Source: Candidatus Saccharimonadota bacterium (GTDB lineage: Bacteria; Patescibacteriota; Gracilibacteria; BD1-5; UBA6164). From it: DNA of 32,000 bases. The notes beneath the pieces were generated by a model. The model was not told the origin of the DNA, ran no database searches, and saw nothing but the letters and a program-made list of their open reading frames with translations. Location of the stretch: contig CP042461.1 in NCBI GenBank assembly GCA_004563595.2, positions 1,110,001-1,142,000 of the forward strand, given 5' to 3'. Shown here in pieces: positions 8,082 through 32,000 of the stretch. The stretch's first letter is position 1, and every line of letters starts with the position of its first letter. A program made the translations under genes and the position numbers.

Positions 8082-8094
8082 AAAATGCCTAACA

Positions 8095-13329: not shown

Positions 13330-13396
13330 ACAGTGTTCATTATTGTGTTATTCATATAAGAATACTATATTTTTTTATTTAATGCAAAATTATCAC

Positions 13397-13425: not shown

Positions 13426-13435
13426 CTTCTTCACT

Positions 13436-13813: not shown

Positions 13814-13924
13814 AATAAATAATTATATACTAAGATTTCACTGATATGCAGCTTCTGATACCCACTATATCTTATTAATGCAATTAGGTCAAATTAGCCC
13901 TCTTTTATTTTCTCACATGGATTT

Positions 13925-13953
13925 TTGAAAAATCTAAACCTTTATGATACAAT
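13925..13953 (+). promoter_or_regulatory. Candidate sigma-70 promoter (TTGAAA-17 nt-TACAAT)
   Basis: TTGAAA at 13925-13930, a 17-nt spacer ending in TGa, and TACAAT at 13948-13953. If functional, transcription would start near 13960 and the downstream ORF would begin at ATG 13973 rather than ATG 13952. Confidence 0.3.
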
Positions 13954-18002: not shown

Positions 18003-18046
18003 ATACACAAAAAAACCAGAATGAATATTCTGGTTTTTTTGTGTAT
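18003..18046. terminator. Bidirectional terminator with a 20-bp perfect stem
   Basis: ATACACAAAAAAACCAGAAT gaat ATTCTGGTTTTTTTGTGTAT lies between convergent rpoD and the surface-protein gene. Its last base is the first base of that gene's stop codon complement. Confidence 0.7.
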
Positions 18047-20832
18047 TAGTCAAATAATGGAGGAGGTGTCAGTTGAATTTTTTGGTTGTATTTTATTACA
18101 ACTGGATAAAAATATTCTTCATCTGTATTTACAAAAACTGAAGTTCATCATTTTGCAGACAGATCTGCAGATGTAATACTCCCATCTAAGTTACTATCAT
18201 ATATAAAGTATCTTCTTAAATAATTCAAATCATACTTTTGTGCTGCTTCTAGATCACATACTCCATTAAAATAATATGGACATCCTGGTGGAGTTGTCCT
18301 TGAAGCACCTATGGTATTTTCAGTAAATAGAGTTCCAAGGATATATAGTTGATCTTTTAGTATATCTTGAGTTCATCAACACGATGATGAGATTTCTCAA
18401 GAGGCACATATAAGAGTATTATAACTTAATAATGATTTATCAGCATACATAATAGCGTTTATTTCTGTTACACTTGGATCAACATAGATATTTCAACCAT
18501 TTCCCTCACTATCTTTTAAGATAATTATTCAAAGCAAATGAGATGATGGAGTAATATTTCATGTTATATATACATTTCAACCATATATAACTAATGTTTT
18601 ATTCTCTGATAAGACATTATAGTCTCATAGGTTTATTACTTTATTTTCTCCTGCATCCAATCATGAGAACTTATAATATTCAACTGTGTTATTCATAAGA
18701 TCTCGTTGTGATCAATCTCAACTATGTGGAACATTTTTTATTACTTCAAATACTTTTTTTCTCAAATCTCTTTTAAGAAGAGATTTCGTATTTTTTCAAA
18801 CTATTTGAATATCCTGATTACTTACGATCTGGTTATAATTTTCAGAGTGAATATTTCAATATATTTTAATTCATGTTTGTATTGTATTATCTGTTCATAC
18901 TCATCACCAATAATTTGATTTTCAAATAATATCTGAGTTATAGACAACTGGAATAGTTCAAATTCAGTTTGGAGCTGTAATATTATAGGATATATGCGTA
19001 GATAAGTATGTATTTTGAATATCATCAAGTAAACCTCATGATTGTGTGAGTAATGTATCTAGGTCATAACTGGTAATACCAAAGCTATTTTCAAACAACG
19101 ATGTATTGGATATATTTCACTGATTTCACTCAACAATATTTCATGCTACTCAACTCACTGATAGGTCTATAAGATTTGATATTACCCTTGATCAAGAGCC
19201 AAATTCAAGATAAATATTTCTCAAAGCAGGAGTTACTACTGATGCATTTCTTATAAGCTCAGTTTGAGAAGTCTGTCATGCTCATTCTACGAATCCATAT
19301 TCTAATAAATCTCATGTTATTTGAGTTTTGTATAAAGGCTGGAAAGAGAAAACTACATTACTACTTCCTATTAGCTGAGCCCCTATATTCCCTAAAGTTC
19401 AATTAATATCATATGTAATACTAGAAATACTAAAACTCGAAAATGGATCTGCAAACTCCTTCCCATTTGTTGCAGCTATATCGTATGTTGGTCAATACAC
19501 TTTAAAATCAAAAGGGTAGCTTCCATCTAAAGATGGTTGAGTATTAAATGAAGTATTTCCTGTTGAAAGCCTGTTACTATAACTCGTGTTTGATGGAATA
19601 TTTAAATATACAGCATCTTGTGTTTGAGTGTACTGATTTCTTCTTAAATTATTTATTACATCAAAATTCAGATCTATCGTTCTTCATATTCATGATGCTG
19701 GTATAATTTCATTTCAATATATATCCTCAAGCGTAATAATTAAGTTTTTTGAGCTTCCATCAGCAACATTTGCAGAATTTGATAGTTGATTTGTAGCATT
19801 ACTTGTAGATAAAATTGTATTTGCATATACATTATATGTAAAAGTCTTCAATGCAGTTACACTACTAGATCAATTTTCTATTCATATTTTATTTCCAGCT
19901 TCATCTTCTATATATGTAACCTTAAATCAATATTCTCTTCCTCCCGAAGATAATCTCATTAAATCAACATTTTCAGTAGAATGAGAAAAAATCAAACTTC
20001 AGGTATTCGAAAAATCAATGGTTGATAAATAATCTCCGGTTGCAGAGCTATAATCTTCAAAAAATCATTGTATTTTCACAATAGGAGATCATCATTGCTC
20101 AGAAACAACTACTGAAATATTTTGAGAATTTGTTGCTAACAAATCAGAGTTATCTATTGGTGTTGTATTTCATATATCTGAAGCTGTTGGAGCTGTTTTA
20201 TCAATTTTAACGATTGCTATTCATGAGTAGATATAACCATTTCAGGCAATATCTTTTCATCTAAAACAAATGTATCTCACCCCTTCTGTATTATATATTT
20301 TTCTATAGTCAGTAACCCATGTACCTCCAGAATCACAAGTAAATGGAACAACTGACTCTCTGTATTGATAACTACTAAAATCACATAAACTTCATCATGC
20401 ATCAAAACAGGTAACCGTAACCATTACATTTCATTTTGCCCATGTATCAGTAGTTGATACAGCTCCCCCAACGCTATATCCGATTAATGGGTTTGAGCCA
20501 TCCCATTTAAGACAATGCATCGTTCATGATCATGATCATACGAGTATGGCATTAGTAGTTCCTGAATTTAATAGATCAGTGTTAAAAGAAGGTGTTGGAA
20601 GCAAGCTTCATGAACTATCCGTCACAGATATATCATTATCATAACCAGGTGGTGTTCATCATGTTATATCCCCATCATCTGGGCATATTGTACAAGTGGG
20701 ATCACCTTGAGGACATATTGTAGTTCATGGGTCAGTATATATTACAGCTGTGTTCCCATACCAATTTGCATATGAAAGATTATAACTCCCTAACGAAAGG
20801 AGAAGTAATACGACTCATAATAACTTCCTCAT
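18046..20832 (-). CDS. Large secreted/surface protein (928 aa) with a Cys-rich N-terminal region
   Basis: Sec-type signal peptide MRKLLGVVLLLLSLGSYNLSYA. Cys-rich start TTICPQGDPTCTICPDDGD...MHCLKWDG...VTCFDAGGSLCDF...FTCDSGG...YICF. An Ig-like-domain hallmark, IVKIDKTAPTASD, is followed by long Ser/Thr/Asn-rich beta-like sequence. The C-terminus reads PPGCPYYFNGVCDLEAAQKYDLNYLRRY. All 46 sequence lines were hand-scanned with no in-frame TAA/TAG. An in-frame upstream ATG exists at 20877. Confidence 0.7.
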
Positions 20833-20900
20833 AAAAAAAATATATAGAAATAAATTATATCCTATATATTTTCTCATATTTTGAATATTTTTGCAAATAT

Positions 20901-22010
20901 CTAATACTCCAAATTTGGGTAATTTTTATTTACTTGTTTAAAATGTTCTATTTGTCTTTTTTTTGCACGTATTATGACCTCTGAACTAGGATTTAATTCT
21001 TTCATTAAAGTATCCATTCATAAAATCACATAATCTATTTCCTGAGATATTTCTTCTCATAACTTTGTTAGTTTTGCGTATTTTTTTATTACTTTTTGGA
21101 GAAATTTTGTTTTTATGTGATATAAAACTATTTTTTCTAACCACATCATATTCTCTCATAAATAGCCATTTTTATAAGCCTTCATAATAATATACATTGT
21201 TGGTGCAAAAGCGTGATATCCAAGAAATACTCCATAAATATGTCTCGCATCTGGTCTAATAGCAGAGTAATACTTTTCATCCTTATTATTGAGGATAATT
21301 GGATCAAATTGAAGTAATAGATTTAATTTATTATGCGATGATTCATGAATAATCGCTTCTAAATTATTGATTTCAGGGCAACTTGAATTAATGGTATATC
21401 CTAAATAAATATGACCAATACATTCATTATAACTTGCCGAGTTATGTATTGATTTCGCAGTTCCAAGTGGCACAATTTTCTGAATAATTTGATTGAGTTC
21501 ATCGTAAGTTCATTCATCTATTTGTTGCAATAATCTGAATGTTTTCTCGTAAACTCATAGCCATTCTTCTTCTCATCTTTCTCACCATCACAATATTCAT
21601 CAAGTTGTATGATGGTCAGGGTGTGCTTCAAAGATATTATAGGGATTATTATCTTTAGCCGTAAGCCTCACATTTGTTCATGAAATTTTTTGTCACTGAT
21701 TCATGCAAAGGTTTTTACTCCCAATTCACTCTTCTAAATATATATTTATTTCATTTTTTAATTTTTGTTGTTCTATAGCATAAAATTCCTCACTATCTAG
21801 ATCATTAATAATCAGAAAATTTATTATCCCAGATTGATCAGGGTTTAAGATAAAATCCCTATTTTCAACTATTAAGAGTTCCTCTATCTCTTCTGATAAG
21901 ATTCAGTTATTTCTTAACTTTTCTAAGTGAGAGATGAGCCTTTTATAGTATTTTTCCAAATATTCCTTTAATAAAGCTGAGTTTTTCTGTCAAAGTACGT
22001 AGTATTTCAT
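20901..22010 (-). CDS. HExxH-motif protein resembling aKG-HExxH-type peptide beta-hydroxylases (HEXXH motif domain, TIGR04267-like)
   Basis: 369 aa. MKYYVLGQKNSALLKEYL...IVPLGTAKSIHNSASYNECIGHIYLGY...LEAIIHESSHNKLNLLLQFDPI...YYSAIRPDARHIYGVFLGYHAF. ATG 22010 is the first ATG after TAG 22032-22034; TAG stop at 20901-20903. The assignment rests on the HExxH motif plus the downstream R-P-x-x-R/H-rich segment only. Confidence 0.65.
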
Positions 22011-22067
22011 TTTGATATTTGATGATAAAAACTATAATTGTGTATAATTATATCTTTCAATATTTTT

Positions 22068-23384
22068 ATGCAATATTTTTTGTACTTACTTACTATTCCC
22101 TTTTTATATTTTAACTTTAAAATTGTTCTTTCTGATCTTAAATTTAAGATCATTCCAAATAAATACTTAGCAAAAATACTCTATATGCTCCCTATATGGT
22201 ATGCGTATTTAATCCTATGATGAACAATTATAGTCTCAGATGTATGGTTCATTATCCTACAAATATTTCTATCTTTCATTATTTCATTTTGACTATATGC
22301 TTATGGTATATGGTCAGCTTGAGATGCAAAATACTTATTAGTATTATCGCTATTTATCCCTCATGTATGAACTCTTACATTTATATGAAACATTGCATTG
22401 TTAACTCTTACATATTTATTGTTATACTTTATTTACTTTTATATATGAAAATGTATACTTCAATCCACATATAGAAAAAGTTTATATTGAAATATTTTTA
22501 ATGACATTAAAGAAATATTTCAATATAAACTTCAGAATAAAACCTCAGAAAATTATAAACAAAAAATCATATATAAAATATCTTTATGAGTGATAAATTT
22601 TTTCGTTATTTTTATCATTTTTAGGCTCTTAAGAATTGCAACATTAAACTGGCTCTATAGTTCATGAACTGATTTTAGCATCATTTCAACAACTGTTTCT
22701 CAGCACAGCACCTTGGTAGTTTTACTTTTGATAATTATTGTATTATGAGCCTTCTATGTAACTAAGAAGATAATGTATTTTTTCAAAAGAATCTTACATG
22801 ACTTTTTTTGAACACAAAGTAAGTATCTCTATAATTGAGTCCTACTACTCAGTTTATCATGTTATATGCTATATGAATATGCATATCATCCCCTAGAAAT
22901 TACCCAGAGTATTACCCTTATTTTTACTGTTTATTTATCTATTTACCTATTTATTATCATACTCAAGTATGCCTCTAAGATTACTTTTCAATTATGAGAA
23001 GAAAAAAGTATTCAAGTAAGGTCCCTAAAGAAATGAGATATTATTGATAAAGTATATCTAAAAAATGTGATAAATAATGTAAATCACAAAAATAAAAAAA
23101 CGGTCGATAACTATAAAGAGGCTCTCAATATCATAAATAATTCCAGCTATCAACTCACCGTCGATGATGTAAAAAAAATACAATCTATTATTAAACAAAT
23201 AAATACAGATTGTAGTACTGATCGCATAATGGCATCTTGATTTCAGTCCATCAATAACATAAAAGTTATGAATACTTTTTCTTTTTGATGATATATCTGG
23301 TCTGGTTTTATGTTGAGTGTCTTCTTATGAAGTTATTTCTCAGAAAAAATAGTACTCTCCTTACAACACATGTTCAGAATATAA
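22068..23384 (+). CDS. A24-family (prepilin/preflagellin peptidase-like) membrane aspartic peptidase with a long C-terminal extension
   Basis: 438 aa. MQYFLYLLTIPFLYFNFKIVLSDLKFKIIPN supplies the first catalytic-Asp context. GLYAYGIWSAGDAKYLLVLSLF supplies the GxGD-type second Asp (the G preceding D is TGA). Several further hydrophobic segments and a ~110-aa soluble stretch follow (KKGDIIDKVYLKNV...). It is the only plus-strand gene in the right half. An alternative TTG start exists at 22038. Confidence 0.6.
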
Positions 23385-23406
23385 AAAAATTTTATTTGAC
23401 CTATTT

Positions 23407-24135
23407 TTAACTTTTAGATGTAATATCTCGTGACTGTAGTATGTATATAGTCCCCCCTCTTACTGTGAATTCAATATCTTGTGCTTTGTCTAATATTCAT
23501 TCAATTTCCCTACATTTTTTATATAATAAATCACTAAAATTAATAAGAATATCTTCTTCAAAAAATAATGATTCAAATCTCGTACTTTGCTTCTTCTTCT
23601 CGCTTACTCATAGATAATTTTCTCCTCCATAAAAACTGTAAATTTTAAGTTTTGTTGTCTCTCTGTCAATTCCGAAACAAAATGGTTTTTTAATCTCTCA
23701 CTGTACTAGGGGTTCATTTATTCCTGGTATGATCTCAAAATAACACTCATTATTATGATGTTTTGTGAAACATACACCACTAAAATCTCCCACAATAAAT
23801 TCTTGTAAAATATATTTCTTTTCAAGCTTTCATATATCAAGGTTATGTAAATCTTTATAATGAGTATATTTTTCTGTTGTTTGTTCCTCACATATATTTA
23901 CCGCATATTTTAAATCTGCGTGAGTGTAAATTGGTGCATACGATTCAAATATTCATGCGAATGCATGACTACTACTATCTTCACATGAAAAAGAAGATCT
24001 AAGAATGAAAGGAGGGTCTAATTGAAGAGTAGAAATATCATGTATATCACTATATGTCTTACGTACAATAAAAGATGGAACATTAAAATTACTTTCCAGT
24101 AATAATTTCAGATTATCAGCTTTTGCTCAATGCAT
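23407..24135 (-). CDS. PEP/pyruvate-binding ATP-grasp domain protein (PPDK_N, PF01326-like), stand-alone
   Basis: 242 aa. MHGAKADNLKLL..NVPSFIV, FILRSSFSCEDSSSHAFAGIFESY, LQEFIVGDFSGVCFTKHH...IIPGINEPLVQGEIKKP, DIEFTVRGGTIYILQSRDIT. All four blocks of the PpsA/PPDK/rifampicin-phosphotransferase nucleotide-binding domain are present. Confidence 0.75.
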
Positions 24136-24140
24136 AAAAT

Positions 24141-25145
24141 TTATTTAATATTAATTTTCTTAGATACCGTATTAATTTCTAGAGTATCATCATTTTGACA
24201 AGAAAAAAATATACCTTCTGCTCCCAGCATTAAAGGAATTCATAACTCTCTACATGTAATTGCTGCATGGGATAATTCTGAACGAGTTTCAACACATATA
24301 CATTGTGCATTATAAAATGCCCTCAAAAATTCTGGATTTGTATTTTCTGCGACCATAATACTTCATTTATTTAAATCACTGGCAGATTCAACATTATAGA
24401 CTTTATGCACTTTTCATTCATAGCTATCTTGTTGTATTGAAATATTTATATCGTAACTTATACTCCTCCTCTGCGTTTTTTGAGAATCAAAATATTGTTC
24501 TATGCTAGAATATCACATGTTCAATATTTCTTGATAGAACTGAATTGCTCTTTTAAATTTAACAGCTTGAAAACGAAAAAAGTATTTTTCAAGTATGCTC
24601 TGGTATTTAAATGTTTTTTGCTGAAGATTTTTAACAATAGAAATATATTTAAGATATTCTGAAGTATAAAAATTATAATTCTCTTGAATATCACTTACAT
24701 CACAGTTAATCATATTAATAATTTCAGCTGATCAGAGCACATAATCATTATCACGTATTTTTTGAAATGAATATTCTTTTTCAAAATCAAGAGAAAGAGG
24801 TAATCATTCTACCATGATATGTTCATTTTTGAGCTCGTTATAGTGTTTTTGAGAACAAATAAATATATCAATTTCAAAACTTTTGTTCAATAATTTTTCA
24901 TACTGACATTGTAATAATCAATGTTTTTTAGATGGGTAAAATGCTCCTAAATCACATCAAATTGAAATAGGTATGTATATTTTAATAGATGATAAATCAA
25001 TATGTAATATATCAGTCAATCTCTTGCTGACCAATACTGGTAATAATCTATTATCTAATAAGATTCCCTGTCACTGAAAAAAATCATGCTGTAATAATGC
25101 AATAATTTCTTGTATTTGTTCTTTTAAACTAAGACTATGTTTCAT
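24141..25145 (-). CDS. PEP-utilising-enzyme mobile (swivel phospho-His) domain protein with an uncharacterised ~230-aa N-terminal domain
   Basis: 334 aa. The C-terminus reads KGSIMVAENTNPEFLRAFYNAQCICVETRSELSHAAITCRELGIPLMLGAEG, matching the PF00391 pattern G.ilV....P......a.aivt..G...SHaAI.aRElGIP. Its stop is 5 nt before the ATG of the ATG-grasp... of the ATP-grasp gene. Confidence 0.7.
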
Positions 25146-25147
25146 AT

Positions 25148-27046
25148 CTATTTTATAGGATTTAATTCACTATCTCAAAGTTTATCATAATAAGTAGTCC
25201 AAATTCATTCACACTTATCATACAGTTTACATCATTCACATTTTTTTGTTCTGACTCTTCATGTATTTTTTCTTCACTCTACAACATCATCGTTATAAAA
25301 ATCTGGTGCACTATGGGTCACATTTGTATATATATCAATCTCTTTTAATTCTGAAATATTATCTTCTAAGTAATCTTCAAAGTGGCATAAAGGAACATAT
25401 CTTACTCGATAGATCATACCATTTGCATTTCCCCAATCGAGAAGTTCTCTCATATGTGGTGAAGCTTCTGATATTTTTGGCATAAGTTCTTCAAAATTAT
25501 CATGAACCCCTCACACATTTGGATCAGCAAATATAAATTCAGAACTTCAAAAGCACTTAAGTTTTTTTACAAATTTTCAAATTCAAAGTACATTATCAAA
25601 ATTTCACTTCTCAATTGCTGTATTGGTACCAATGCTTTCATTTGGAAATCATAATTCTTGCCAGATTTGAATTCATTTTATGAGTTTATCAAACGCTCCT
25701 GGAACTGCTACTAACTTATCATGTAATTCTGCATTATCGGCATGAATCGAAAATACTACGCTATCAAGAATATCCATATCATAAAGTTTTTGAGAAAACT
25801 CACGGTCAGAAAATTTCAATCAGTTTGTTACCAAATATACATGACGAAAATGAAGAGATTTAATAAATTTCATGATCACAAAAAAATCTTTTCTGATAGT
25901 GACTTCTCATCATATAATCTCCAATATTTCAGTTCCATTTTGCTTTGCAATTAATATGTCTTTTAGGACTTCTTTCGTCGTTCTATTTATATTACGTTTA
26001 TTTAAATCTATACAGAACCTACACACAATATTACATCCATATCATACAAAAATAACCGTTTTTTTTCATGCAAAACTATCTTTTACATCTTCAATTGGTT
26101 TAAATCTAAAATTGTCAGTGTTTTCAATAATTTTTAATTTATCAATATCTTTTTTATAAAATGGCTGTATTTCTTCTTTTCAATTAAATTCACAATAGGT
26201 CTCGTGAATTCACATACAATACTTTGATAACTTACATGTACTACACTTCCCTGTAAAAGTGATTTCATGACTTGGAAGTGTTCTCCACATGTACTTCCAT
26301 AGTTTTTTTTCTTTTATGGTACACAGCGGAAAATGATACAATTTAAATTTATCTACTCAAAACTTTTCTCAATATTCCAAAAAAACCTTCTCATTTACTC
26401 ACATAACCTGAGTATAATTCATTTTTGTGAGTTTGATATTATCAATTGCTTGTCATTCAAACTCCATCATAATCGTAACAACACTATCAACCTGAGGAAA
26501 ATATTTATATATCAGTTCATACATTTTATCTAAAAACTTATAGTTTTGTCATTGAATAATAAGTCTTAATTCAAGAGTTTGATTATTAAATTTTTTATAT
26601 TTAAGGGCATTATGGATTCACTTCAATAGTTCTTCCCATGATCATTTTTTTCTCACAATTGCTTCGTGAGTTTCTTTGTTATAACCATGAATAGGAAATA
26701 CCAAATGATAATTTTCTAGGGTTGCTATTTGTTTCATAAAATCTATATTTGCAAACCTATCTCCATGCGTCAATTGTACCAGTGTTGATTGTGGAAATTT
26801 TTCTCTTATATATTGAAGTATTTTAAAATAATCTGGGTTCAAAGTTGGTTCACCTCATGTAATAGTCCAGTCATCTTTTAAATCAGGGAATCTATGAAAA
26901 TTTCTATCGTCACCTGATAAAAACCCATCAATTCTTGTTTTGATGGCCTCATAATGATAATCTTTTAATGTATATTTATAGTCAGCATCGTTTGAACACA
27001 TAGTACATTTGTGATCACAAGCTGGCCATAAGGCAATATCTGGCAT
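25148..27046 (-). CDS. Fused double radical SAM protein (two complete radical SAM modules in one 632-aa ORF)
   Basis: Module 1: WPACDHKCTMC (CX3CX2C, 26996-27019), ITGGEPTL, and the C-terminal Cys motif FPLC...GKCSTCKLSKYCMGIHETYC. Module 2: GYGCNIVCRFC (26012-26035), EIIGGEVT (GG is TGA TGA), YVPLCHF...KKCEGCKLYDKCEGIWTTYYDKLGDSELNPIK*. I hand-scanned every codion... every codon between the modules and found no TAA/TAG. The stop lies 2 nt before the next ATG. Confidence 0.75.
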
Positions 27047-27051
27047 ATTCT

Positions 27052-27570
27052 TTAGGTTAATTCATTAATAAGCCATTTAAAGAGAGGAAAATGCTCTCAC
27101 TTAAATGTATATAATTCAGAACATTCATAAGTAAAGTAAAGAAAATAATCTACTATATTATCTGTTTCAATTACTCATTTTTGTCATTCTCATATTTTCT
27201 TTCCATTTGAAGTATCTATTATCTTATTCAGAAAAACTTCATTTTTTCAAAAATCAAAGTAATCCTTATATCACTTGATAAACTGAATATCTGTATCAAA
27301 ATGAGAAAAACTTATCTTATACATTTCTTTTCTAAATCGAAATGTATATCAATTATCGAATTGAACCTCTCAGAGAAGATAAAAATAATAAAAAAGTAGC
27401 TTTTTCACTTCTTGAACCTCATTAATGTTAAAATCATTACAAGCTAATGTAGATTTTAAATAGTATAAAAGTTCGAACTGTCATATATTTTCTGTCTTAT
27501 AGGGGTTTGTTAGTCAGATAACTTCCTTGTATTGCTGGTTATCAAACAGCCTTAATATTTTATCGTTCAT
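27052..27570 (-). CDS. Hypothetical protein (172 aa)
   Basis: MNDKILRLFDNQQYKEVIGLTNPYKTENIGQFELLYYLKSTLA...FKGEHFPLFKWLINELT*. ATG at 27570 lies one codon after an in-frame TAG. The stop is 5 nt before the double radical SAM ATG. No family recognised. Confidence 0.5.
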
Positions 27571-27647
27571 ATCCTATATTAGTATCATAATTTTTCATTC
27601 ATAGCAATTATATACAAATCTATATCATTCCCAAAAATAAAACTCAT

Positions 27648-28829
27648 TTATCTCACCTTTCACTCATCTATGTATAGCAAATAATTATAGCACAATTTCT
27701 CAATATTCATTAAGCCTTGGAATGCTTTACTTTCTCAAATATGATGCTCTCGATATAAAAAGGCTAAAGAAAACATAATCTCATCTGTTTCATCATTAAT
27801 ATATTTTCCATAATAGTTTAAAAAATCTTTCTTCGAGTTAGAAAAAAGAACATCTGACTTCAGATTACTTTCTAGAGAGAGGATTTGCATATTTTCATGA
27901 AAATTTAATTCAGAAAATTCATTGAAAAATTTTTGAACACTCTGTTTCAAGTATATGTAAAAATTTTCATAATCTCATAAAATGAGATTATTCTCTGCTA
28001 AAGTTTTATAAAATTTAAAATCATTTTTATTATTTATTTCTGCATCATGCAAAATTGTCATTAAAATATCTTGTGACTCATCATACTTTCATATCTTCTT
28101 TAAAGCTGCGGCTTTTCAAATAAATGGCTCAGGCTGACGATACTTATAATATGTTTCATTTAAAATAATAGATCCATTGAATAATGATATTGCTTTTTTT
28201 TGATCTCATAATGCAAGATAAATATATCCGAGCCGACTATATATAAAAGTAGGGATTTCAGAATGAGTATATCTTTTTTCAAGAATTTTTACGGCCTTAA
28301 TACAATACTTTTTCGCTGCACTCAGATACTTCTTATCTTTGTGCATTCTATATAATCGAGTTCCTAAAAAACGGGAGTATGCACAAAGCACATAAGGATT
28401 ATCAGTGTTGCATTCTAATAATTGTCTAAAAATTTCATTCATCTCTCGGCTTCATTTATTGTCATAGTATCGTACATACGCAGCGAGTGCATAGAAATTA
28501 TATTTATTTTCTTTCAATAATTCATCAACATTCTCTCATTGCTTCTGAGACATAAAGCATGGGTCAAGAATAGACTCATTTAAAAATAAAAAAATGTACC
28601 TCTTATCATATCAAAGAATAGACTCTCTACATTCACTAAAACCAATATCTAAATCCTGACGAGTATCTATATTCTTAAAATAAAAATATGGTCGTTGAAA
28701 CTTTTCTCTGCCTTTTAAATATCCCTTATATCAATGGTAATAAGCAAAATAATCTAAAAAAACCTCAAAGTCTTCTTTGTTCTTGAATTCTACCATACGC
28801 TCATATATATTATCAATAAATACACTCAT
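27648..28829 (-). CDS. TPR-like repeat protein
   Basis: 393 aa. TPR-like helical repeats, for example NPYVLCAYSRFLG, IYSRLGYIYLALGDQKKAISLFNGSI, FIGKAAALKKIGKYDESQDILMTIL. The first ATG at 28829 overlaps the upstream radical SAM ORF by 20 nt; an alternative ATG is at 28796. TAA stop at 27648-27650. Confidence 0.6.
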
Positions 28830-29679
28830 AGCAGCTTGAAAATAAGTCTCTTTTAGAATTAATTTCTTCTAATCTATTATAATAACGATCAAAATCTTTC
28901 TTTATTTTTTCATCGCTATCATACACATTTAACATATTTCTATTTTTTGATAAATAACATATATTCGTATGCATTGTTAAATCTCAATTTAACATAATAT
29001 TTATCTCATTCTCATCGTGAGTAAATGTCCCCAACTCATCTTTATATTTCATAAAGTAATAATACTTACAATTATCAGTTCATAACCTTGTAGAAACGAA
29101 TTTTTTACTATCATGAATGGGATATGGGTGTTTTCAAAATACTAAGTCTACGTTTTTAAACTTTTGTCATAGATAATATAAAAATTTAAATTCTGAGTTC
29201 TCAATGCTATATCTCACACTAAAAGGAGAAAAATAATTATGAGTATTGAGAAAATGGAATACTTTTACCCAATCTTTTTTATACTTTGTTACATTCATTT
29301 CATTTATATTTGAAACAAATGTATACTCAATGTTATAGATATTTTTTATTTCAACTAAATTTTCAAGGTACTCTTTATTATATGGGACAAGTCAAGATAC
29401 TTGAATAATAATCTTTAAATTTGGCTGAAATGAATGTACATACGTAATAAGATCAATAATATGCTTATTTGCAAACATATTACTTCAAAAAAAGGTAAAT
29501 CACTGTAAATAATCTCAGTCTACAATCAAAAAGGTTTTTCTAATTGACTCCTTGAGTTGAAGAATTTCTTCATCAGAATAAATACTCATTTCCATGACTC
29601 ATTCTTTACATGTATCACACCTCGTTATACATCCATGTCATAACTTAGTTATTAATTTTGGAACTTGGATTTTTAACAT
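28810..29679 (-). CDS. Small radical SAM protein, paralogue A (289 aa)
   Basis: MLKIQVPKLITKLGHGCITRCDTC (CX3CX2C). C-terminal Cys residues: TDNCKYY, LNGDLTMHTNICYL, SSCYECIYG*. The architecture is shared with the next two ORFs. Confidence 0.7.
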
Positions 29680-30613
29680 TATTATAATGGTTTACAAAGT
29701 ATGACTGGCAAAAATTACAAATATTTCAATCCTTTCATTTATTTTTATAATCATTCGACATAGACTCTAATGATTTTTTTAACACTATCGAATTCTCTAT
29801 TAAATCACTCTTTTTACTTTTAATATTTCATATTGAAAGTTCTTTGATTGATGAACAATATGGTCAATGTGGCATTATTTGATTTTCTGAAAAATCAAAC
29901 ATAAGAATATCTAGGTCCTTGCTCTTATCTGATATATAGTTCTTGGAAAGAAAAGAGCACTCCTTTTCTCATGAATATGAAAATAGCTCTGTTGAAAGGT
30001 CAATGTAACTTATAACTTTTGTTCATTCGCCTTCGGTAAAATACAATTTAGTGCCACTATCTAATAGTCATCTTAAAACATTTAAAGTTTTGTTTTTATC
30101 TACTCTATTCGAAGAAGAGTTTATTTCTCTATGTAAAATGAGTTTAGATTCTATATTTTTCCTTTTTAATAAATGTAATTTTGCAGGAATATCGTCAGTC
30201 AAAATATCCTCATTTAACCTTACAGATATTCAAAGTTTTATGGAAAAAAAAGGTTGAAAAATATCTATAAATTCTTTCACATCTGCATCGAAAATACCGT
30301 TTATATTTTTTATTTTTGTATATACCAATAGCTCATCTTTTCGCTTTAAAATCTTAAGTTTCATCAAAGTATAAATATATTTTTTAATGAAAGCTATGTT
30401 CGTTACAAAGTCTCAACACTGATTTAATGAAAGTGAATTATATGTAAGGTTATTTTTTTTTGCAAAATAAGAAAATTTCACCAAAAATTTGAGGTCTATT
30501 TTGCTTAATATTTCCTCGTTTCTGTTTGAGCTTATACAACTATAACATCATCTCGAACAATTATAATTATTAGGTATCGGATTCAAAACGAATCAATCAA
30601 TATTTATTTTCAT
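29645..30613 (-). CDS. Small radical SAM protein, paralogue B (322 aa)
   Basis: MKINIDGFVLNPIPNNYNCSRGCYSC (CX3CX2C; the G inside the motif is TGA). C-terminal Cys residues: ENQIMPHGPYCSS, GNICNFCQSY. The 3' end overlaps paralogue A by 35 nt in a different frame. Confidence 0.7.
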
Positions 30614-30621
30614 ATGTATGA

Positions 30622-31491
30622 TTATTGATAACTATACTTCCCTTTAATTATACATTTATAACAATTATGTTCAAATGTTTTTTCTTCATTATTCACGCTA
30701 TTAAGATATGATTTAAAGCTATTAAAATCAAATATTCTTTTCTCATTATCAAAAAATATATTTGATATTTTTAAGTCTGCCAAATAACACCTCGGAATAT
30801 GTGGTCTAATATCTCAATTTATAGATATTTCTAGGTCATAATATCAATCAAAGTCTTCAAAAATAATATCATTATTTTTGACTAAGAATGAGTTATGATA
30901 TTTGCAAAGTACATCTTCACTTGTTACAATTTCGTTATCATTATCAATCTGTAGTGCCTCAGAAATACTTAATTTCAATTGTTTATACCTTGTTAATAAT
31001 CGAAAATTTTTACTTTCTATTAACTCTATTTTTTTCTTATAATATATTTGAAATGAAATATTATCAATATAATCCTCCAAAAAAAATTCTAATAGCCTTA
31101 CCAATGATTTAAAATTATAAGTATTCAGGTTACTAATTGAAGTAGAAACATAAACTTGTATATTATATTTTTGTAATAAATATGCTAATATTTTATAAGT
31201 TCAAGGTTTATAGATATTTATATCTGAAATTTGAATTGCAATTCATCATTTTGGATCGAATTGATGTATATACAACATCAGCTCATCTATATCGCCGTAC
31301 AGTAATGGATCAACTCAAAAACAAAATATCTCACAGTCATTATTAAAGACTTGAAAAGTAGTTGCAATATTTTTCTTTAATTCAGACATGTCATAATACG
31401 TCTGAGAGGTATAATTATCACTACATCAAGTACATCAAGTATTACAACCTTTTCAAAGTCTGAAAAGGAGCCTTTTTGCTCCATATATCAT
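30622..31491 (-). CDS. Small radical SAM protein, paralogue C (289 aa)
   Basis: MIYGAKRLLFRLGKGCNTGCTGC (CX3CX2C with two TGA Gly inside the motif), CFGVDPLLYGDIDEL (GGEP-like), INGDIRPHIPRCYL, HNCYKCIIKG. ATG at 31491 lies one codon after the upstream gene's TAA. Confidence 0.7.
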
Positions 31492-31494
31492 ATC

Positions 31495-32000
31495 TTATAT
31501 ATTTATTAAATCACTCTGCCCATATGCAGAAATATACTCGTCAAATATTCCATAACAATCATCTTTAAAATCACACTTTCCACATTCTGGTAAATATGAT
31601 CTTCTTCCATAATCAGTATTATAGAGCTTATTCTCATATACCTCAGTTATATAATTTATCTTTTCAGTCTTCAGGTCAGCCCTTTTTTCTAAATCTCATA
31701 AAAATAAACATAGAGGGAATCAATCCCAGTATATTTTAATACCTTTTCCGTCAAACATTTCTATTGCTGATTTTATATTAAGAGAGGCTTCTTTCGGTGA
31801 ACAGAATAATGCATCATTATTTCAAGCACCAGAGGGTTCTAAAAGAGAAAACTTAATACTTAAGTTTTCATACGAAGTCTTTAAAAGACCATTCAAAGTG
31901 TCCTCTATGGAAGATAAATTATCAGAAATAACCACATAATTTAAAAATAATGAATCAAAACTTCTTTTTTTCAAAGAACCTATGATCTTTATGACTCATT
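31495..32000 (-). CDS. C-terminal part of a further radical SAM protein (5' end lies outside the window)
   Basis: ...IKIYWDGFPLCLFLGDLEK...RSYLPECGKCDFKDDCYGIFDEYISAYGQSDLINI*. The tail closely parallels module 2 of the double radical SAM protein (YVPLCHF...KKCEGCKLYDKCEGIWTTYYDKLGDSEL). The CX3CX2C motif itself is not in the window. Confidence 0.55.

What the first reader, a model, noticed from the sequence alone, without database searches (positions are those of the whole stretch)
20901..32000. Candidate undescribed peptide/protein-modification system with six radical SAM domains, an HExxH hydroxylase-like protein, a split PEP-type phosphotransferase and an A24 membrane peptidase
From the right edge down to 23407, nine minus-strand ORFs are packed with gaps of -35 to +77 nt. 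In order they are:
1. a radical SAM protein (partial)
2. three small radical SAM paralogues
3. a TPR-like protein
4. a 172-aa unknown protein
5. a double radical SAM fusion
6. a swivel-His domain protein
7. an ATP-grasp PPDK_N protein

Next come a convergent A24-type aspartic peptidase-like membrane protein and an HExxH protein of the type found in RiPP clusters. Radical SAM enzymes with C-terminal Cys-rich (SPASM/twitch-like) tails, HExxH hydroxylases, a protease and TPR scaffolds are the usual vocabulary of RiPP maturation. I do not recognise this combination and multiplicity from any described RiPP class, least of all with a PpsA/rifampicin-phosphotransferase-like kinase. The cluster uses TGA = Gly inside catalytic motifs, so it is functional in the recoded host rather than a recent import from a standard-code organism.
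Basis: partly seen in the sequence, partly recalled or inferred. Interest (0 to 1): 0.92.

Follow-up and report, generated by a model that had tools for sequence, protein, structure and literature searches.

The report
Expanded His-Xaa-Ser radical SAM system
The gene cluster is the downstream two-thirds of an unusually large version of the known His-Xaa-Ser (HXS) peptide-maturation system, recently shown in E. coli to block phage DNA entry; here it sits in a tiny recoded Gracilibacteria genome with several extra enzymes of unknown role.

Summary
The cluster is not a stand-alone unknown system, because the window cuts an operon in half. An identical contig (L014, 0 mismatches over 12,356 bp) shows the missing upstream genes: hxsD, an HxsD-like gene, hxsB, and a 123-aa HxsA-type substrate ending in (HGS)6-7. 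HxsD and HxsB pass their curated cutoffs.

The "double radical SAM fusion" joins an HxsC homolog to an HxsC4-like homolog. These are separate adjacent genes in a standard-code HxsA4-type cluster.

Of the "six radical SAM domains":
- three are solid;
- RS_a and RS_c are probable but degenerate;
- RS_b is supported only by Cys motifs.

The A24 peptidase, the αKG-HExxH protein and the split PpsA-like phosphotransferase are all confirmed as families. Each recurs in some related Gracilibacteria loci, which vary greatly in accessory genes. A 172-aa partner of the fusion is always present and has a confident predicted structure with no known fold match.

Verdict: a new, heavily elaborated variant of a known kind. 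The chemistry, the roles of the accessory enzymes and the biological function are inferred, not shown.

The parts
31495..32000 (-). 3' part (C-terminal 167 of 298 aa) of an HxsC-like radical SAM gene. The full gene is 31495-32391 in window-equivalent coordinates.
   Evidence: The partial product hits HxsC TIGR03977 at E 3.6e-7. The full-length product from the identical contig L014 has CNYTCSFC and SGGEST motifs and scores 88.5 bits on HxsC, below the 267.9 cutoff.
30622..31491 (-). RS_a, 289 aa: a divergent, probably degenerate HxsC-like radical SAM protein and paralogue of RS_c.
   Evidence: CxxxCxxC at residues 16-23. Pfam Radical_SAM scores 26.4 bits, below the gathering cutoff of 29.5. 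Paralogous to RS_c at E 2e-18. HHalign gives 92-93% probability to HxsC-like families over the N-terminal ~90 aa. Only one other homolog was found in 5.8 billion proteins.
29645..30613 (-). RS_b, 322 aa: a Cys-rich protein of a small orphan family. Its radical SAM status is unproven.
   Evidence: Seven Cys are conserved across the family: C19/C23/C26, C219, C253, C299, C302. The family has only 10 representatives among 1.84 billion proteins. None of the 10 members hits PF04055. HHalign to radical SAM families reaches at most 17.5%. The AF2 model has pLDDT 48.5 with an alternating β/α core. Foldseek finds only generic barrels.
28810..29679 (-). RS_c, 289 aa: paralogue of RS_a.
   Evidence: CxxxCxxC at residues 17-24. 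Pfam Fer4_12 hits at E 0.014 only. Paralogous to RS_a at E 2e-18. The C-terminal H-x-x-x-C ... CxxC tail aligns with the HxsC-type tails.
27648..28829 (-). TPR-like protein, 393 aa.
   Evidence: TPR_8/TPR_2/TPR_1 hits at E 6e-5 to 2e-4, all below gathering cutoffs. Homologs occur in L003, L008, L009 and L012 next to the fusion gene.
27052..27570 (-). 172-aa conserved partner of the fusion protein; unknown family and fold.
   Evidence: Present beside or near the fusion gene in 9 of the 10 related loci compared with the window (all but L012). The family has 49 members, all unannotated. No Pfam, NCBIfam, PADLOC or PDB-sequence hit. The AF2 model of ortholog P0046 has pLDDT 88.8 and pTM 0.86. No fold match in PDB (best E 2.7) or BFVD.
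25148..27046 (-). 632-aa fusion of two radical SAM enzymes: N half HxsC-type, C half HxsC4-like.
   Evidence: TIGR03977 HxsC scores 215 bits on residues 9-282 (cutoff 267.9). NF038332 HxsC4 scores 141 bits on residues 330-631 (cutoff 500). About 30 full-length homologs at 60-80% identity were found; those traced to records are Gracilibacteria/Patescibacteria MAGs. Both CxxxCxxC motifs, both GGE motifs and 4+4 C-terminal Cys are invariant or nearly invariant. The halves correspond to adjacent separate genes in L015/L017, at E 3.5e-87 and 3.8e-57.
24141..25145 (-). 334-aa protein: an unknown N-terminal ~240 aa plus a C-terminal PEP-utilising swivel phospho-His domain.
   Evidence: PF00391 scores 52.2 bits (cutoff 23.1) on residues 259-325. 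The His motif SELSHAAIT is conserved with the L003 homolog.
23407..24135 (-). 242-aa PPDK_N-type ATP-grasp nucleotide-binding protein, partner of the swivel protein. Last gene of the operon.
   Evidence: PF01326 scores 64.7 bits (cutoff 27). The best NCBIfam hits are PEP synthase, PigC and rifamycin phosphotransferase, all partial. The same split pair occurs in L003, and a fused 500-aa version in L001/L013.
22068..23384 (+). 438-aa polytopic membrane protein with an N-terminal A24 (prepilin-peptidase-type) aspartic protease domain. Convergent with the operon end.
   Evidence: The window protein scores 18.5 bits on PF01478 (cutoff 26.5). All 7 family members hit PF01478, best E 2.7e-8. D23 (SDxxxxxIPN) and G85-D86-x-K88 are invariant. 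Present at the edge of the island in 7 loci.
20901..22010 (-). 369-aa αKG-HExxH-type peptide β-hydroxylase homolog. It starts a separate transcription unit, divergent from the A24 gene.
   Evidence: TIGR04267 scores 56.6 bits (cutoff 40). HExxHNKLN and RPDARH motifs are conserved in 4 loci. In L012 it directly follows radical SAM genes on the same strand.
18046..20877 (-). 943-aa secreted protein with an N-terminal signal-like segment. It is a conserved downstream partner of the HExxH gene; whether it belongs to the system is uncertain.
   Evidence: No Pfam or NCBIfam hit. Homologs follow the HExxH gene in L002, L009 and L012. It starts 23 nt after the HExxH stop.

Best explanation
**What it is.** The finding is the distal part of a single ~12.6-kb, 14-gene minus-strand operon. 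The operon is an expanded His-Xaa-Ser (Hxs/HXS) radical SAM protein-maturation system of the (HGS)n, HxsA4-like type.

**Gene order.** hxsD, hxsD-like (64 aa), hxsB, hxsA (123 aa), a 324-aa membrane-anchored protein, an HxsC-like radical SAM (298 aa), RS_a, RS_b, RS_c, TPR, the 172-aa protein, the HxsC+HxsC4-like fusion, the swivel-His protein and the PPDK_N ATP-grasp protein. The first five genes and the 5' end of the sixth lie just beyond the window edge.

**Shown here.**
- The gene content.
- The family memberships.
- The substrate gene.
- Conservation of the core in related loci.

**Inferred by analogy with E. coli HXS.**
- HxsB and the HxsC-type enzymes, assisted by HxsD-family proteins, make radical-mediated covalent modifications at HxS motifs of HxsA.
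- Candidate sites are the invariant HxSGxVxGHxS motif and the C-terminal (HGS)6-7 plus Cys tail.
- HxsA is then N-terminally processed and exported to the cell surface.

**Inferred from family chemistry only.**
- The extra HxsC-like, RS_a/RS_c and RS_b proteins, with the TPR and 172-aa proteins, add or scaffold further modifications.
- The split PpsA/rifampicin-phosphotransferase-like pair transfers phosphate from ATP through a phospho-His to a hydroxyl, most simply a Ser of the repeats.
- The neighbouring αKG-HExxH enzyme β-hydroxylates His or Asp residues.
- The A24-type membrane protease takes part in leader removal.

**Biological role.** It is unknown. Antiphage defence as in E. coli HXS is the leading guess (about 0.3). 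A metal-binding or host-interaction surface peptide is the alternative.
For: 1. **Extension of the operon.** L014 is identical to window 19645-32000 (0 mismatches over 12,356 bp) and extends it.
2. **Curated models on the upstream genes.**
   - HxsD TIGR03976: 64.6 bits, cutoff 50.
   - HxsB TIGR03978: 479 bits, cutoff 370.
   - HxsD-like NF038315: 38.8 bits, cutoff 41.
   - HxsA aligns end to end with HxsA4 (profile 3-93 of 93) and ends in GHGSHGSHGSHGSHGSHGSHCSW.
3. **The fusion.** It matches HxsC at 215 bits plus HxsC4 at 141 bits.
4. **Unfused relatives.** Its halves are adjacent separate genes in standard-code clusters. Those clusters carry two cutoff-passing HxsB genes, HxsD-family genes and an HxsA4 that passes its cutoff (127.9 bits vs 55).
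5. **Related Gracilibacteria loci.** L001, L002, L004, L005 and L013 carry the same leader+(HGS)n substrates. HxsB-like genes were detected in L001, L002 and L013, and HxsD in L001 and L002.
6. **Tight packing.** Gaps of -35 to +77 nt on one strand.
7. **Similarity to annotated HxsB.** The window-genome HxsB is 33-36% identical over ~96% of its length to annotated hxsB on 415 plasmids.
8. **Mechanistic analogy.** HxsC-HxsD complex, +8 Da modification in an HxS repeat, N-terminal processing and export (PMC13128918).
9. **HExxH chemistry.** αKG-HExxH enzymes hydroxylate His/Asp on radical-SAM-modified peptides (PMC12636437).
10. **Recurrence of the phosphotransferase.** It appears split in the window and L003, and fused in L001/L013.
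Against: - **Cutoffs not reached.** No HxsC-type protein here reaches the HxsC or HxsC4 curated cutoff, and HxsA is below the HxsA3/HxsA4 cutoffs.
- **Different substrate.** HxsA lacks the peptidoglycan-binding domain. Its X residue is Gly, not basic, so the electrostatic DNA-binding model of E. coli HXS does not transfer directly.
- **Loci without visible Hxs genes.** L003, L008, L009 and L012 carry the fusion, the TPR protein and (except L012) the 172-aa protein, but no HxsA/B/D within 10 kb. The fusion may therefore also serve other substrates.
- **Separate transcription.** HExxH and the A24 peptidase are not in the operon. They could be conserved neighbours by descent.
- **Leader cleavage site.** The residue before the putative G|F site is N, S or V in some homologs.
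- **Lineage-specific genes.** RS_a, RS_b and RS_c are nearly lineage-specific. RS_a/RS_c lack an evident GGE SAM motif and may be non-catalytic.
- **No expression or product data exist.**
Confidence: 0.8

Rival explanations
1. Composite locus. A standard Hxs core (HxsD, HxsB, HxsA, one HxsC-like enzyme) lies next to a second, independent peptide-modification pathway. That pathway would comprise RS_a/b/c, TPR, the 172-aa protein, the fusion and the phosphotransferase, with its own unidentified substrate. The two are co-transcribed only because the genome is compact.
For: - Loci L003, L008, L009 and L012 have the fusion and TPR (and, except L012, the 172-aa protein) plus many other radical SAM genes, a 2OG oxygenase and a cysteine desulfurase, but no HxsA/B/D within 10 kb.
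- Accessory gene content differs greatly between loci, while the fusion stays 70-80% identical.
- The 172-aa, TPR, RS_a/b/c and phosphotransferase families are absent from the standard-code HxsA4 clusters.
Against: - Both halves of the fusion are orthologous to the adjacent HxsC / HxsC4-like pair inside a genuine HxsA4 cluster. The fusion is therefore an Hxs component, not a foreign module.
- In the window genome everything lies in one tightly packed operon.
- No second candidate substrate ORF was found in the window.
- The 10-kb flanks of the loci lacking HxsA may simply be too short.
Confidence: 0.15
2. One reading: a self-contained, previously undescribed RiPP class unrelated to any catalogued system.
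For: - The combination of many radical SAM proteins, a PpsA-like kinase, an A24 peptidase and an HExxH enzyme was not found in the literature searched.
- Three families (the 172-aa protein, RS_b, RS_a/c) have no annotated relatives.
Against: - HxsB and HxsD pass curated equivalog cutoffs.
- An HxS-repeat substrate is present.
- The fusion's best matches are HxsC and HxsC4.
- NCBIfam already holds HxsA3, HxsA4, HxsC4 and HxsD-like models, and a standard-code HxsA4 cluster is homologous.
Confidence: 0.03
3. Housekeeping radical SAM genes (cofactor, tRNA or rRNA modification) that merely sit side by side.
For: Generic radical SAM similarity to MoaA, NirJ, AhbD and viperin models at 40-75 bits.
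Against: - All such hits are far below their cutoffs and weaker than the Hxs hits.
- The genes travel together with HxsD and HxS-repeat substrates in several loci.
- No housekeeping family model is passed.
Confidence: 0.02

Closest known systems
Canonical HXS / His-Xaa-Ser system (HxsD-HxsB-HxsC-HxsA; TIGR03976-03979; Li et al., Nat Commun 2026, PMC13128918)
   Same: - HxsB and HxsD pass their curated cutoffs.
- The HxsC-type radical SAM has a C-terminal Cys motif.
- The substrate has tandem His-Xaa-Ser repeats and an N-terminal leader.
- HxsB is 33-36% identical to annotated HxsB.
   Different: - 14 operon genes instead of 4.
- Order D-D'-B-A-...-C rather than D-B-C-A.
- HxsC is below its cutoff and is fused to a second radical SAM domain.
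- HxsA is 123 aa with X = Gly and no peptidoglycan-binding domain.
- The host is a code-25 CPR bacterium, whereas 99.7% of surveyed HXS systems are in Pseudomonadota.
- Extra phosphotransferase, TPR, 172-aa, RS_a/b/c, A24 and HExxH genes.
HxsA4 / HxsC4 / HxsD-like variant catalogued in NCBIfam (NF038313, NF038332, NF038315), exemplified here by locus L015 (standard code, 54.5% GC)
   Same: - Same leader motif, and an (HGS)n repeat followed by a Cys-containing tail.
- An HxsD-like small protein.
- HxsC plus an HxsC4-like enzyme, adjacent in L015 and fused here.
- Several radical SAM genes in one cluster.
   Different: - The window-genome proteins fall below the HxsA4, HxsC4 and HxsD-like cutoffs.
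- The two HxsC-type genes are fused, and in the opposite order.
- L015 has two HxsB genes and about 30 repeats.
- L015/L017 lack the 172-aa, TPR, RS_a/b/c, swivel/PPDK_N, A24 and HExxH families.
- No publication on this variant was found.
αKG-HExxH peptide β-hydroxylases (TIGR04267 / IPR026337; ChlBH, BpmH, PflC/PosC)
   Same: - The domain passes its cutoff (56.6 bits vs 40).
- The HExxH motif and downstream His motifs are conserved.
- Family members act on radical-SAM-modified peptides and hydroxylate His/Asp.
   Different: [quoted passage not shown]
- Transcribed separately from the operon.
- Always followed by a ~950-aa secreted protein.
- The substrate is unknown.
PEP synthase / rifampicin phosphotransferase / PigC-type ATP-grasp + swivel-His enzymes
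   Same: ATP-grasp (PF01326) and swivel phospho-His (PF00391) domains, with the catalytic His motif intact.
   Different: - Split into two proteins in the order swivel then ATP-grasp; fused in L001/L013.
- No recognisable PEP/pyruvate-binding or rifampicin-binding domain.
- The ~240-aa N-terminal part of the swivel protein is unassigned.
- Every full-length family cutoff is missed by a wide margin.
Peptidase A24 (prepilin/preflagellin peptidases)
   Same: The N-terminal ~105 aa matches PF01478 across the family, and both catalytic Asp motifs are invariant.
   Different: - 438 aa, with a long extra polytopic and soluble C-terminal region.
- No methyltransferase domain.
- The window protein is below the Pfam cutoff.
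- No solved-structure match by sequence profile.

Membership tests
His-Xaa-Ser (Hxs/HXS) system | HxsB radical SAM/SPASM maturase (TIGR03978, cutoff 370) | tested here: met
   479 bits, aligned 3-466 of 466. The gene lies at window-equivalent 33766-35214 on the identical contig L014.
His-Xaa-Ser (Hxs/HXS) system | HxsD small protein (TIGR03976, cutoff 50; PF27806) | tested here: met
   64.6 bits, with a precomputed PF27806 hit.
His-Xaa-Ser (Hxs/HXS) system | HxsC radical SAM maturase (TIGR03977, cutoff 267.9) | tested here: not met
   HxsC is the best family hit but below cutoff: 215 bits for the fusion N half and 88.5 bits for the 298-aa protein.
His-Xaa-Ser (Hxs/HXS) system | Substrate protein with tandem His-Xaa-Ser repeats next to the maturases | tested here: met
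   The 123-aa protein ends in GHGSHGSHGSHGSHGSHGSHCSW and lies directly after hxsB. Homologous substrates occur in 5 related loci. No canonical HxsA model was among its hits at E <= 0.01; only HxsA3 and HxsA4 matched.
His-Xaa-Ser (Hxs/HXS) system | [quoted passage not shown] | tested here: not met
   14 genes, in the order D, D-like, B, A..., C-type enzymes.
His-Xaa-Ser (Hxs/HXS) system | [quoted passage not shown] | tested here: not met
   X is Gly in every repeat, and the 123-aa protein matched only the HxsA3 and HxsA4 repeat-protein models in NCBIfam. HxsA itself was not scanned against Pfam.
His-Xaa-Ser (Hxs/HXS) system | Antiphage activity by blocking DNA entry | not testable with these tools
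   The organism is uncultivated. PADLOC v2 has no HXS model.
HxsA4/HxsC4-type variant (NCBIfam) | HxsA4 repeat protein (NF038313, cutoff 55) | tested here: not met
   33.7 bits, although aligned over profile positions 3-93 of 93. The L015 relative passes with 127.9 bits.
HxsA4/HxsC4-type variant (NCBIfam) | HxsC4 radical SAM protein (NF038332, cutoff 500) | tested here: not met
   141 bits for the fusion C half, aligned 16-335 of 335. The L015 homolog also fails, at 124 bits.
HxsA4/HxsC4-type variant (NCBIfam) | HxsD-like small protein (NF038315, cutoff 41) | tested here: not met
   38.8 bits, just under the cutoff, aligned 3-62 of 62.
HxsA4/HxsC4-type variant (NCBIfam) | HxsC and an HxsC4-like enzyme encoded together | tested here: met
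   They are fused in one 632-aa protein here and are adjacent genes in L015/L017, matching at E 3.5e-87 and 3.8e-57.
Radical SAM superfamily (for RS_a, RS_b, RS_c) | N-terminal CxxxCxxC cluster motif | tested here: met
   Present at residues 16-23, 19-26 and 17-24. There are 5 motifs in the window against 0.03 expected.
Radical SAM superfamily (for RS_a, RS_b, RS_c) | Match to PF04055 at the gathering cutoff (29.5 bits) | tested here: not met
   RS_a scores 26.4 bits; RS_b and RS_c have no hit. None of the 10 RS_b family members hits.
Radical SAM superfamily (for RS_a, RS_b, RS_c) | Profile-level homology to confirmed radical SAM enzymes | tested here: inconclusive
   RS_a/RS_c give 92-93% HHalign probability, but over only ~90 residues. 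RS_b gives at most 17.5%. The RS_b model has low confidence.
Radical SAM superfamily (for RS_a, RS_b, RS_c) | SAM-binding GGE motif | tested here: not met
   The aligned positions read FGVDP (RS_a) and FGSN (RS_c), and no equivalent is seen in RS_b. The fusion halves have GGEP and GGEV.
SPASM/twitch auxiliary-cluster domain | PF13186 / TIGR04085 match | tested here: not met
   No SPASM hit for any window protein. The C-terminal tails are HxsC-type (HxPxC ... CxxCxxxxxC), with four conserved Cys per domain.
Peptidase A24 | Two catalytic Asp motifs in membrane segments (D...IP and GxGDxK) | tested here: met
   D23, I29-P30-N31 and G85-D86-x-K88 are invariant in 7 sequences.
Peptidase A24 | PF01478 at the gathering cutoff (26.5 bits) | tested here: inconclusive
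   The window protein scores 18.5 bits. All 7 family members hit at E <= 0.01, with a best E of 2.7e-8.
αKG-HExxH peptide β-hydroxylase | TIGR04267 domain (cutoff 40) with a conserved HExxH motif | tested here: met
   56.6 bits. HE(S/Y)xHNKLN is conserved in 4 homologs.
PEP-utilising / PpsA-RPH-type phosphotransferase | ATP-grasp PPDK_N domain plus a swivel domain with the catalytic His | tested here: met
   PF01326 scores 64.7 bits and PF00391 scores 52.2 bits. The SELSHAAIT His motif is conserved.
PEP-utilising / PpsA-RPH-type phosphotransferase | Third, substrate-binding domain (PEP/pyruvate TIM barrel or rifampicin-binding domain) | tested here: not met
   No model covers residues 1-240 of the swivel protein. 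All full-length family cutoffs are missed.

The most novel reading that the evidence does not exclude
A Gracilibacteria lineage has built a much more elaborate pathway on the Hxs scaffold. The pathway would combine radical SAM chemistry with ATP-dependent phosphoryl transfer through a PpsA-like phospho-His relay. It would also use αKG-dependent hydroxylation and an atypical A24 membrane protease, producing a heavily decorated His-rich surface peptide.

That would be the first PpsA/RPH-type enzyme in peptide maturation. The pathway would involve three protein families with no known relatives: the 172-aa fold-orphan partner of the fusion, the seven-Cys RS_b family, and the degenerate RS_a/RS_c pair. 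The strong locus-to-locus variation in accessory genes would reflect diversifying selection on the product, as expected for defence or host interaction in an episymbiont.
Probability: 0.3. Interest if true: 0.7.

Novelty: new variant of a known kind. Interest (0 to 1): 0.5.

Why it matters
- **Reach of the system.** HXS was shown only in 2026 to be an antiphage system, and it was reported as almost exclusive to Pseudomonadota. This locus shows that a related (HGS)n-type system exists in recoded, genome-reduced CPR bacteria. Here it takes up about 1% of a 1.34-Mb genome and has grown to at least seven CxxxCxxC-bearing domains.
- **A natural gene fusion.** The HxsC+HxsC4-like fusion argues that the two enzymes act together.
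- **A conserved fold-orphan partner.** The 172-aa protein may play an HxsD-like role for the fusion.
- **Candidate tailoring enzymes.** The phosphotransferase, HExxH and A24 enzymes could help define the still unknown chemistry of Hxs maturation.
- **Annotation.** It is a clear example of why code-25 genomes must be translated correctly before clusters are called novel, and of how a window edge can hide the defining genes.

Tried and rejected
1. **Extending the window directly.**
   - P0001 is not in the encoding index.
   - A genome-contig scan with the edge gene found nothing.
   - An exact 37-mer scan of metagenome contigs found nothing.
   - The extension finally came from looking up RS_b's database copy, P0043.
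2. **A substrate inside the window.** Six-frame searches for HxS repeats, for the KGFLTxESGK leader and for Cys/His-rich small ORFs found none in the window.
3. **HxsD-like or RRE-like identity for the 172-aa protein.** There is no Pfam, NCBIfam, PADLOC, PDB-sequence, PDB-fold or viral-fold match.
4. **RS_b as a radical SAM enzyme.**
   - BLAST, phmmer and HHalign with 2-sequence and 10-sequence profiles gave no support.
   - A Pfam scan of 10 members and a PDB profile search gave none either.
   - AF2 plus Foldseek added nothing beyond motifs and a β/α pattern.
5. **Prepilin-type G|F...E(+5) cleavage of the HxsA leader by the A24 protease.** This was considered because 5 of 7 Gracilibacteria leaders read K-G-F-L-T-x-E. 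It was downgraded because the -1 residue is N, S or V in other homologs, the hydrophobic segment starts about 15 residues later, and L015/L017 lack the protease.
6. **PADLOC as a test of defence function.** It is uninformative because the library predates HXS.
7. **Promoter/terminator scan of 20700-24300.** The total count of hits is not above shuffles, and no terminator was found.
Database versions, some carrying Trp at TGA codons, had to be used instead.

Full report
**1. Observation**

Under the standard bacterial code, no ORF longer than 105 aa overlaps 19000-32000. Reading TGA as a sense codon raises long-ORF coverage of the window from 6.5 kb to 48 kb. TGA falls at conserved glycine positions, for example ELGgNDAF in an aldehyde dehydrogenase. 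It also falls inside catalytic motifs of the cluster: TITgGEPT, EIIggEVT, CNTgCTgC and CSRgCYSC. The genome therefore uses code 25.

| Coordinates | Strand | Gene | Size (aa) |
|---|---|---|---|
| 31495-32000 | - | partial gene | 167 in window |
| 30622-31491 | - | RS_a | 289 |
| 29645-30613 | - | RS_b | 322 |
| 28810-29679 | - | RS_c | 289 |
| 27648-28829 | - | TPR-like | 393 |
| 27052-27570 | - | 172-aa protein | 172 |
| 25148-27046 | - | fusion | 632 |
| 24141-25145 | - | swivel protein | 334 |
| 23407-24135 | - | PPDK_N | 242 |
| 22068-23384 | + | A24-like | 438 |
| 20901-22010 | - | HExxH | 369 |

Gaps within the minus-strand run are -35 to +77 nt. All five CxxxCxxC motifs in the window's proteome lie in this cluster, against 0.03 expected from 2000 composition-preserving shuffles.

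**2. Family assignments inside the window**

- **Fusion.** It has two Radical_SAM domains. Its N half matches the His-Xaa-Ser maturase HxsC (TIGR03977, 215 bits, cutoff 267.9). Its C half matches 'radical SAM protein HxsC4' (NF038332, 141 bits, cutoff 500).
- **Partial edge gene.** It is also HxsC-like.
- **Phosphotransferase pair.** The swivel protein carries PF00391 (52 bits) and the next gene PF01326 (65 bits). Their best full-length relatives are PEP synthase, PigC/RedH and rifamycin phosphotransferase, all far below cutoff.
- **HExxH protein.** It passes TIGR04267 (56.6 bits, cutoff 40).
- **Membrane protein.** On its own it scores below the Peptidase_A24 cutoff. All seven members of its family match the model (best E 2.7e-8), and both catalytic Asp motifs are invariant.
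- **172-aa protein.** It has no hit in any library.

**3. The three small proteins**

- RS_a and RS_c are paralogues (E 2e-18). As a family they show remote homology to HxsC-type enzymes: HHalign probability 92-93% over the N-terminal ~90 residues.
- RS_a is just below the Pfam cutoff (26.4 vs 29.5 bits).
- Neither RS_a nor RS_c has an evident GGE SAM-binding motif.
- RS_b is different. Even with a 10-member family profile, taken from an exhaustive search of 1.84 billion representatives, there is no detectable homology to radical SAM enzymes.
  - None of the 10 members hits PF04055.
  - HHalign aligns only the CxxxCxxC stretch.
  - The best radical SAM PDB match is BtrN at E ~4.
- The RS_b structure model has low confidence (pLDDT 48.5), though its core alternates β/α. 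Fold hits are generic barrels.
- The RS_b family does conserve seven Cys: three N-terminal and four C-terminal. This fits one radical SAM cluster plus one auxiliary cluster.

I count three solid radical SAM domains in the window, two probable and degenerate, and one supported by motifs only. All three small proteins are nearly lineage-specific: the only other homologs found in 5.8 billion proteins are two proteins from a 2.1-kb contig.

**4. What lies beyond the edge**

- **Source.** The fusion protein is 100% identical to a protein of Candidatus Gracilibacteria bacterium 28_42_T64, a closed 1.34-Mb genome.
- **Extension.**
  - That genome is absent from the scanned collections.
  - RS_b's database copy led to a 412,643-bp contig, L014.
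  - Its reverse complement matches window 19645-32000 with 0 mismatches over 12,356 bp and continues 8.6 kb further.

In window-equivalent coordinates, on the minus strand, the operon continues upstream as follows:

| Window-equivalent coordinates | Gene | Evidence |
|---|---|---|
| 31495-32391 | 298-aa HxsC-like enzyme (the full version of the edge gene) | CNYTCSFC and SGGEST motifs; HxsC 88.5 bits |
| 32376-33350 | 324-aa protein with an N-terminal membrane anchor | no family hit |
| 33371-33742 | 123-aa HxsA-type substrate | basic leader; ends GHGSHGSHGSHGSHGSHGSHCSW |
| 33766-35214 | HxsB | TIGR03978, 479 bits, cutoff 370 |
| 35218-35412 | 64-aa 'HxsD-like protein' | NF038315, 38.8 bits, cutoff 41 |
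| 35424-35993 | HxsD | TIGR03976, 64.6 bits, cutoff 50 |

Upstream of HxsD lies the ATP synthase operon.

**5. Comparison with related loci**

- **Conserved core.**
  - Thirteen loci carrying the fusion were fetched, and genes were called with code 25.
  - The fusion is 60-80% identical across about 30 homologs. Those traced to records are Gracilibacteria/Patescibacteria MAGs.
  - Both cluster motifs, both GGE motifs and 4+4 C-terminal Cys are invariant or nearly invariant.
  - The 172-aa family accompanies the fusion in 9 of the 10 related loci compared with the window (all but L012).
  - The A24-like protein marks the far edge of the island in seven loci.
- **Variable remainder.**
  - Each locus holds two to seven CxxxCxxC-bearing genes of differing types, typically five or more where 10 kb of flank is available.
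  - L001, L002, L004, L005 and L013 carry HxsA-type substrates. HxsB-like genes were detected in L001, L002 and L013, and HxsD in L001 and L002.
  - These substrates share an invariant leader (P..K..K.F...ESGK..KK.A.G). They also share an invariant H-x-S-G-x-V-x-G-H-x-S motif and 4-7 HGS repeats.
  - L003, L008, L009 and L012 show none of these genes within 10 kb. Instead they carry PapB-like/SPASM enzymes, a second two-domain radical SAM protein, a 2OG oxygenase, a cysteine desulfurase and a YcaO-looking protein.
- **Accessory modules.**
  - The PpsA-like module recurs as a split pair in L003 and as a fused 500-aa protein in L001/L013.
  - HExxH followed by a ~950-aa secreted protein recurs in L002, L009 and L012. 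In L012, HExxH directly follows radical SAM genes on the same strand.

**6. Relatives outside the clade**

The closest single-domain relatives of the fusion come from standard-code organisms (L015/L016 at 54.5% GC; L017 at 62.9% GC).

- A 354-363-aa gene homologous to the fusion's C half (E 3.5e-87) sits directly before a 320-aa gene homologous to its N half (E 3.8e-57).
- In L015 the cluster also contains two HxsB genes (467 and 419 bits, both above cutoff) and several HxsD-family genes.
- The L015 cluster also holds a cysteine desulfurase and further radical SAM genes.
- L015 also has a 175-aa substrate that passes the HxsA4 cutoff (127.9 bits vs 55). It has the same leader, about 30 HGS repeats and a Cys-rich tail.
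- The Gracilibacteria fusion is therefore a fusion of two neighbouring Hxs genes. The whole system belongs with the (HGS)n, HxsA4-like branch that NCBIfam already catalogues.
- I found no publication on that branch.
- None of the 172-aa, TPR, RS_a/b/c, swivel, PPDK_N, A24-like or HExxH families occurs in L015/L017.

**7. What is known about the family**

- **Canonical system.**
  - HXS is a four-gene system, HxsD-HxsB-HxsC-HxsA, and 99.7% of examples are in Pseudomonadota.
  - It protects E. coli against 110 of 113 phages by blocking DNA entry.
- **Maturation.**
  - HxsC binds HxsD.
  - HxsA acquires a +8 Da modification in its last HxS repeat.
  - HxsA is N-terminally processed and acts in the periplasm. 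There its basic repeats are thought to bind DNA and its peptidoglycan-binding domain to anchor it.
- **Similarity to annotated genes.**
  - The window genome's HxsB is 33-36% identical over ~96% of its length to annotated hxsB on 415 plasmids, mostly conjugative Klebsiella plasmids.
  - A Nostoc plasmid shows the compact order hxsA2-hxsD-hxsB-hxsC.
- **HExxH enzymes.** αKG-HExxH enzymes β-hydroxylate Asp, His or Gln in peptides. Many are fused to radical SAM domains and act after radical SAM crosslinking.

**8. Most likely mechanism**

*Shown:* the operon structure, the substrate gene, the family memberships and conservation of the core.

*Inferred by analogy with E. coli HXS:*
- HxsB and the HxsC-type enzymes, with HxsD-family helpers, install radical-mediated covalent modifications at HxS motifs of the 123-aa HxsA.
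- HxsA is then processed and exported.

*Inferred from family chemistry only:*
- The ATP-grasp protein loads a phosphoryl group onto the swivel His (motif SELSHAAIT, conserved).
- That group passes to a hydroxyl, most simply a repeat Ser.
- HExxH hydroxylates His or Asp.
- The A24-type protease helps remove the leader.
- The TPR protein and the 172-aa protein act as scaffolds.

*The 172-aa protein.* Its ortholog gives a confident model (pLDDT 88.8, pTM 0.86). No fold match was found in the PDB or BFVD.

*Leader cleavage.*
- The leader reads K-G-F-L-T-D-E in five of seven Gracilibacteria substrates. This recalls a prepilin site with Gly at -1, Phe at +1 and Glu at +5.
- The -1 residue is N, S or V in other homologs.
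- The hydrophobic segment starts much later than in pilins.
- I therefore give this only about 25%.

*Biological role.*
- It is open. The substrate lacks basic repeat residues and a peptidoglycan-binding domain, so the E. coli DNA-binding model does not carry over unchanged.
- The highly variable accessory content points to diversifying selection, as in defence or host interaction. One locus (L003) has toxin-antitoxin genes interspersed among the radical SAM genes.

**9. Transcription units**

- The A24-like gene is convergent with the operon's last gene, 22 nt apart.
- It is divergent from HExxH across a 57-nt spacer.
- Promoter-like hexamers face both ways in that spacer: 22019-22048 on the plus strand and 22060-22031 on the minus strand.
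- The region's total count of such hits does not exceed shuffles, and no terminator-like site was found.
- HExxH and the 943-aa protein thus form their own unit. Their membership in the system rests on recurrence in four loci, not on co-transcription.

**10. Novelty and verdict**

- The genome paper for this organism never mentions radical SAM genes.
- No paper in the library links Gracilibacteria with this system.
- No paper describes a PpsA-like enzyme in peptide maturation.
- The core is nonetheless a catalogued and now experimentally characterised family. The finding is a new, strongly elaborated variant of a known kind rather than a new class.
- I rate interest at 0.5.
  - For a specialist, the surprising points are the system's presence and size in a reduced, recoded CPR genome, and the natural HxsC-HxsC4 fusion.
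  - The fold-orphan partner and the recurring phosphotransferase also stand out.
  - No step of the added chemistry has been demonstrated.

Noticed in passing
window 356-1558 (+) and 1570-3360 (+): A two-subunit ATP-citrate lyase: Citrate_bind 192 bits plus an ACL-type ATP-grasp 151 bits, then CoA-ligase plus a citrate synthase C-terminal domain. This is unusual for a CPR bacterium, but the genome paper for this organism already mentions citrate lyase and citrate degradation.
   Followed up: partly
window 18046-20877 (-): A 943-aa secreted protein with no Pfam or NCBIfam hit. It always follows the HExxH gene (window, L002, L009, L012) and is followed by rpoD and dnaG in the window and L002. 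It could be the hydroxylase's real substrate or simply a conserved neighbour.
   Followed up: partly
L014 7264-8238 (window-equivalent 32376-33350, minus strand): A 324-aa protein with an N-terminal membrane anchor lies directly after hxsA. L001 (312 aa) and L002 (258 aa) have membrane-anchored proteins in the same position, with no detectable sequence similarity to it. These are positional analogues of unknown role.
   Followed up: no
L003 8542-9766 and 13313-15661: Two PemK-family toxin genes and an AAA_14/DUF4143 ATPase pair are interspersed among the radical SAM genes of one related island. This is the sort of company seen in variable defence islands.
   Followed up: no
L005 6349-7566, L008 6718-7947, L009 12460-13671: A conserved ~405-aa family in the loci lacking visible HxsA looks YcaO-like by eye (GKGLTKYQAxASALMEFxERYSW). 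It sits near a cysteine desulfurase (Aminotran_5), which hints at thioamide or azoline chemistry. It was not tested against any library.
   Followed up: no
L003 3036-4754, L008 3719-5446, L009 4426-6165: A second, different two-domain radical SAM protein of 572-579 aa. The L009 member has two PapB/HxsB-like radical SAM stretches. It occurs in the same islands, so domain duplication or fusion of radical SAM enzymes has happened at least twice in this clade.
   Followed up: partly
database proteins P0043, P0045, P0066 and many rows of A1/A7: Public translations of these genes often carry Trp where the true residue is Gly, because TGA was read with code 4 instead of code 25. Examples are GWEPT for GGEPT and SRWCYSC for SRGCYSC. 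This weakens homology searches and structure prediction for the clade.
   Followed up: partly
L015 16306-16833: An HxsA4 substrate with about 30 consecutive HGS repeats and the tail CRGGWCCPRCF, in a standard-code organism with two HxsB paralogues and four HxsD-family genes. It is a second, unstudied, expanded Hxs architecture.
   Followed up: partly
window 11899-13329 (-), 7425-9423 (-): A GGDEF-domain protein (88.7 bits), plus a response regulator and histidine kinase pair identified by eye only. This is signalling capacity in a very small genome.
   Followed up: no
window 13383-13937 (+): A 185-codon stop-free stretch with its first ATG at codon 165 and low-complexity content. It is probably not a gene.
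   Followed up: no
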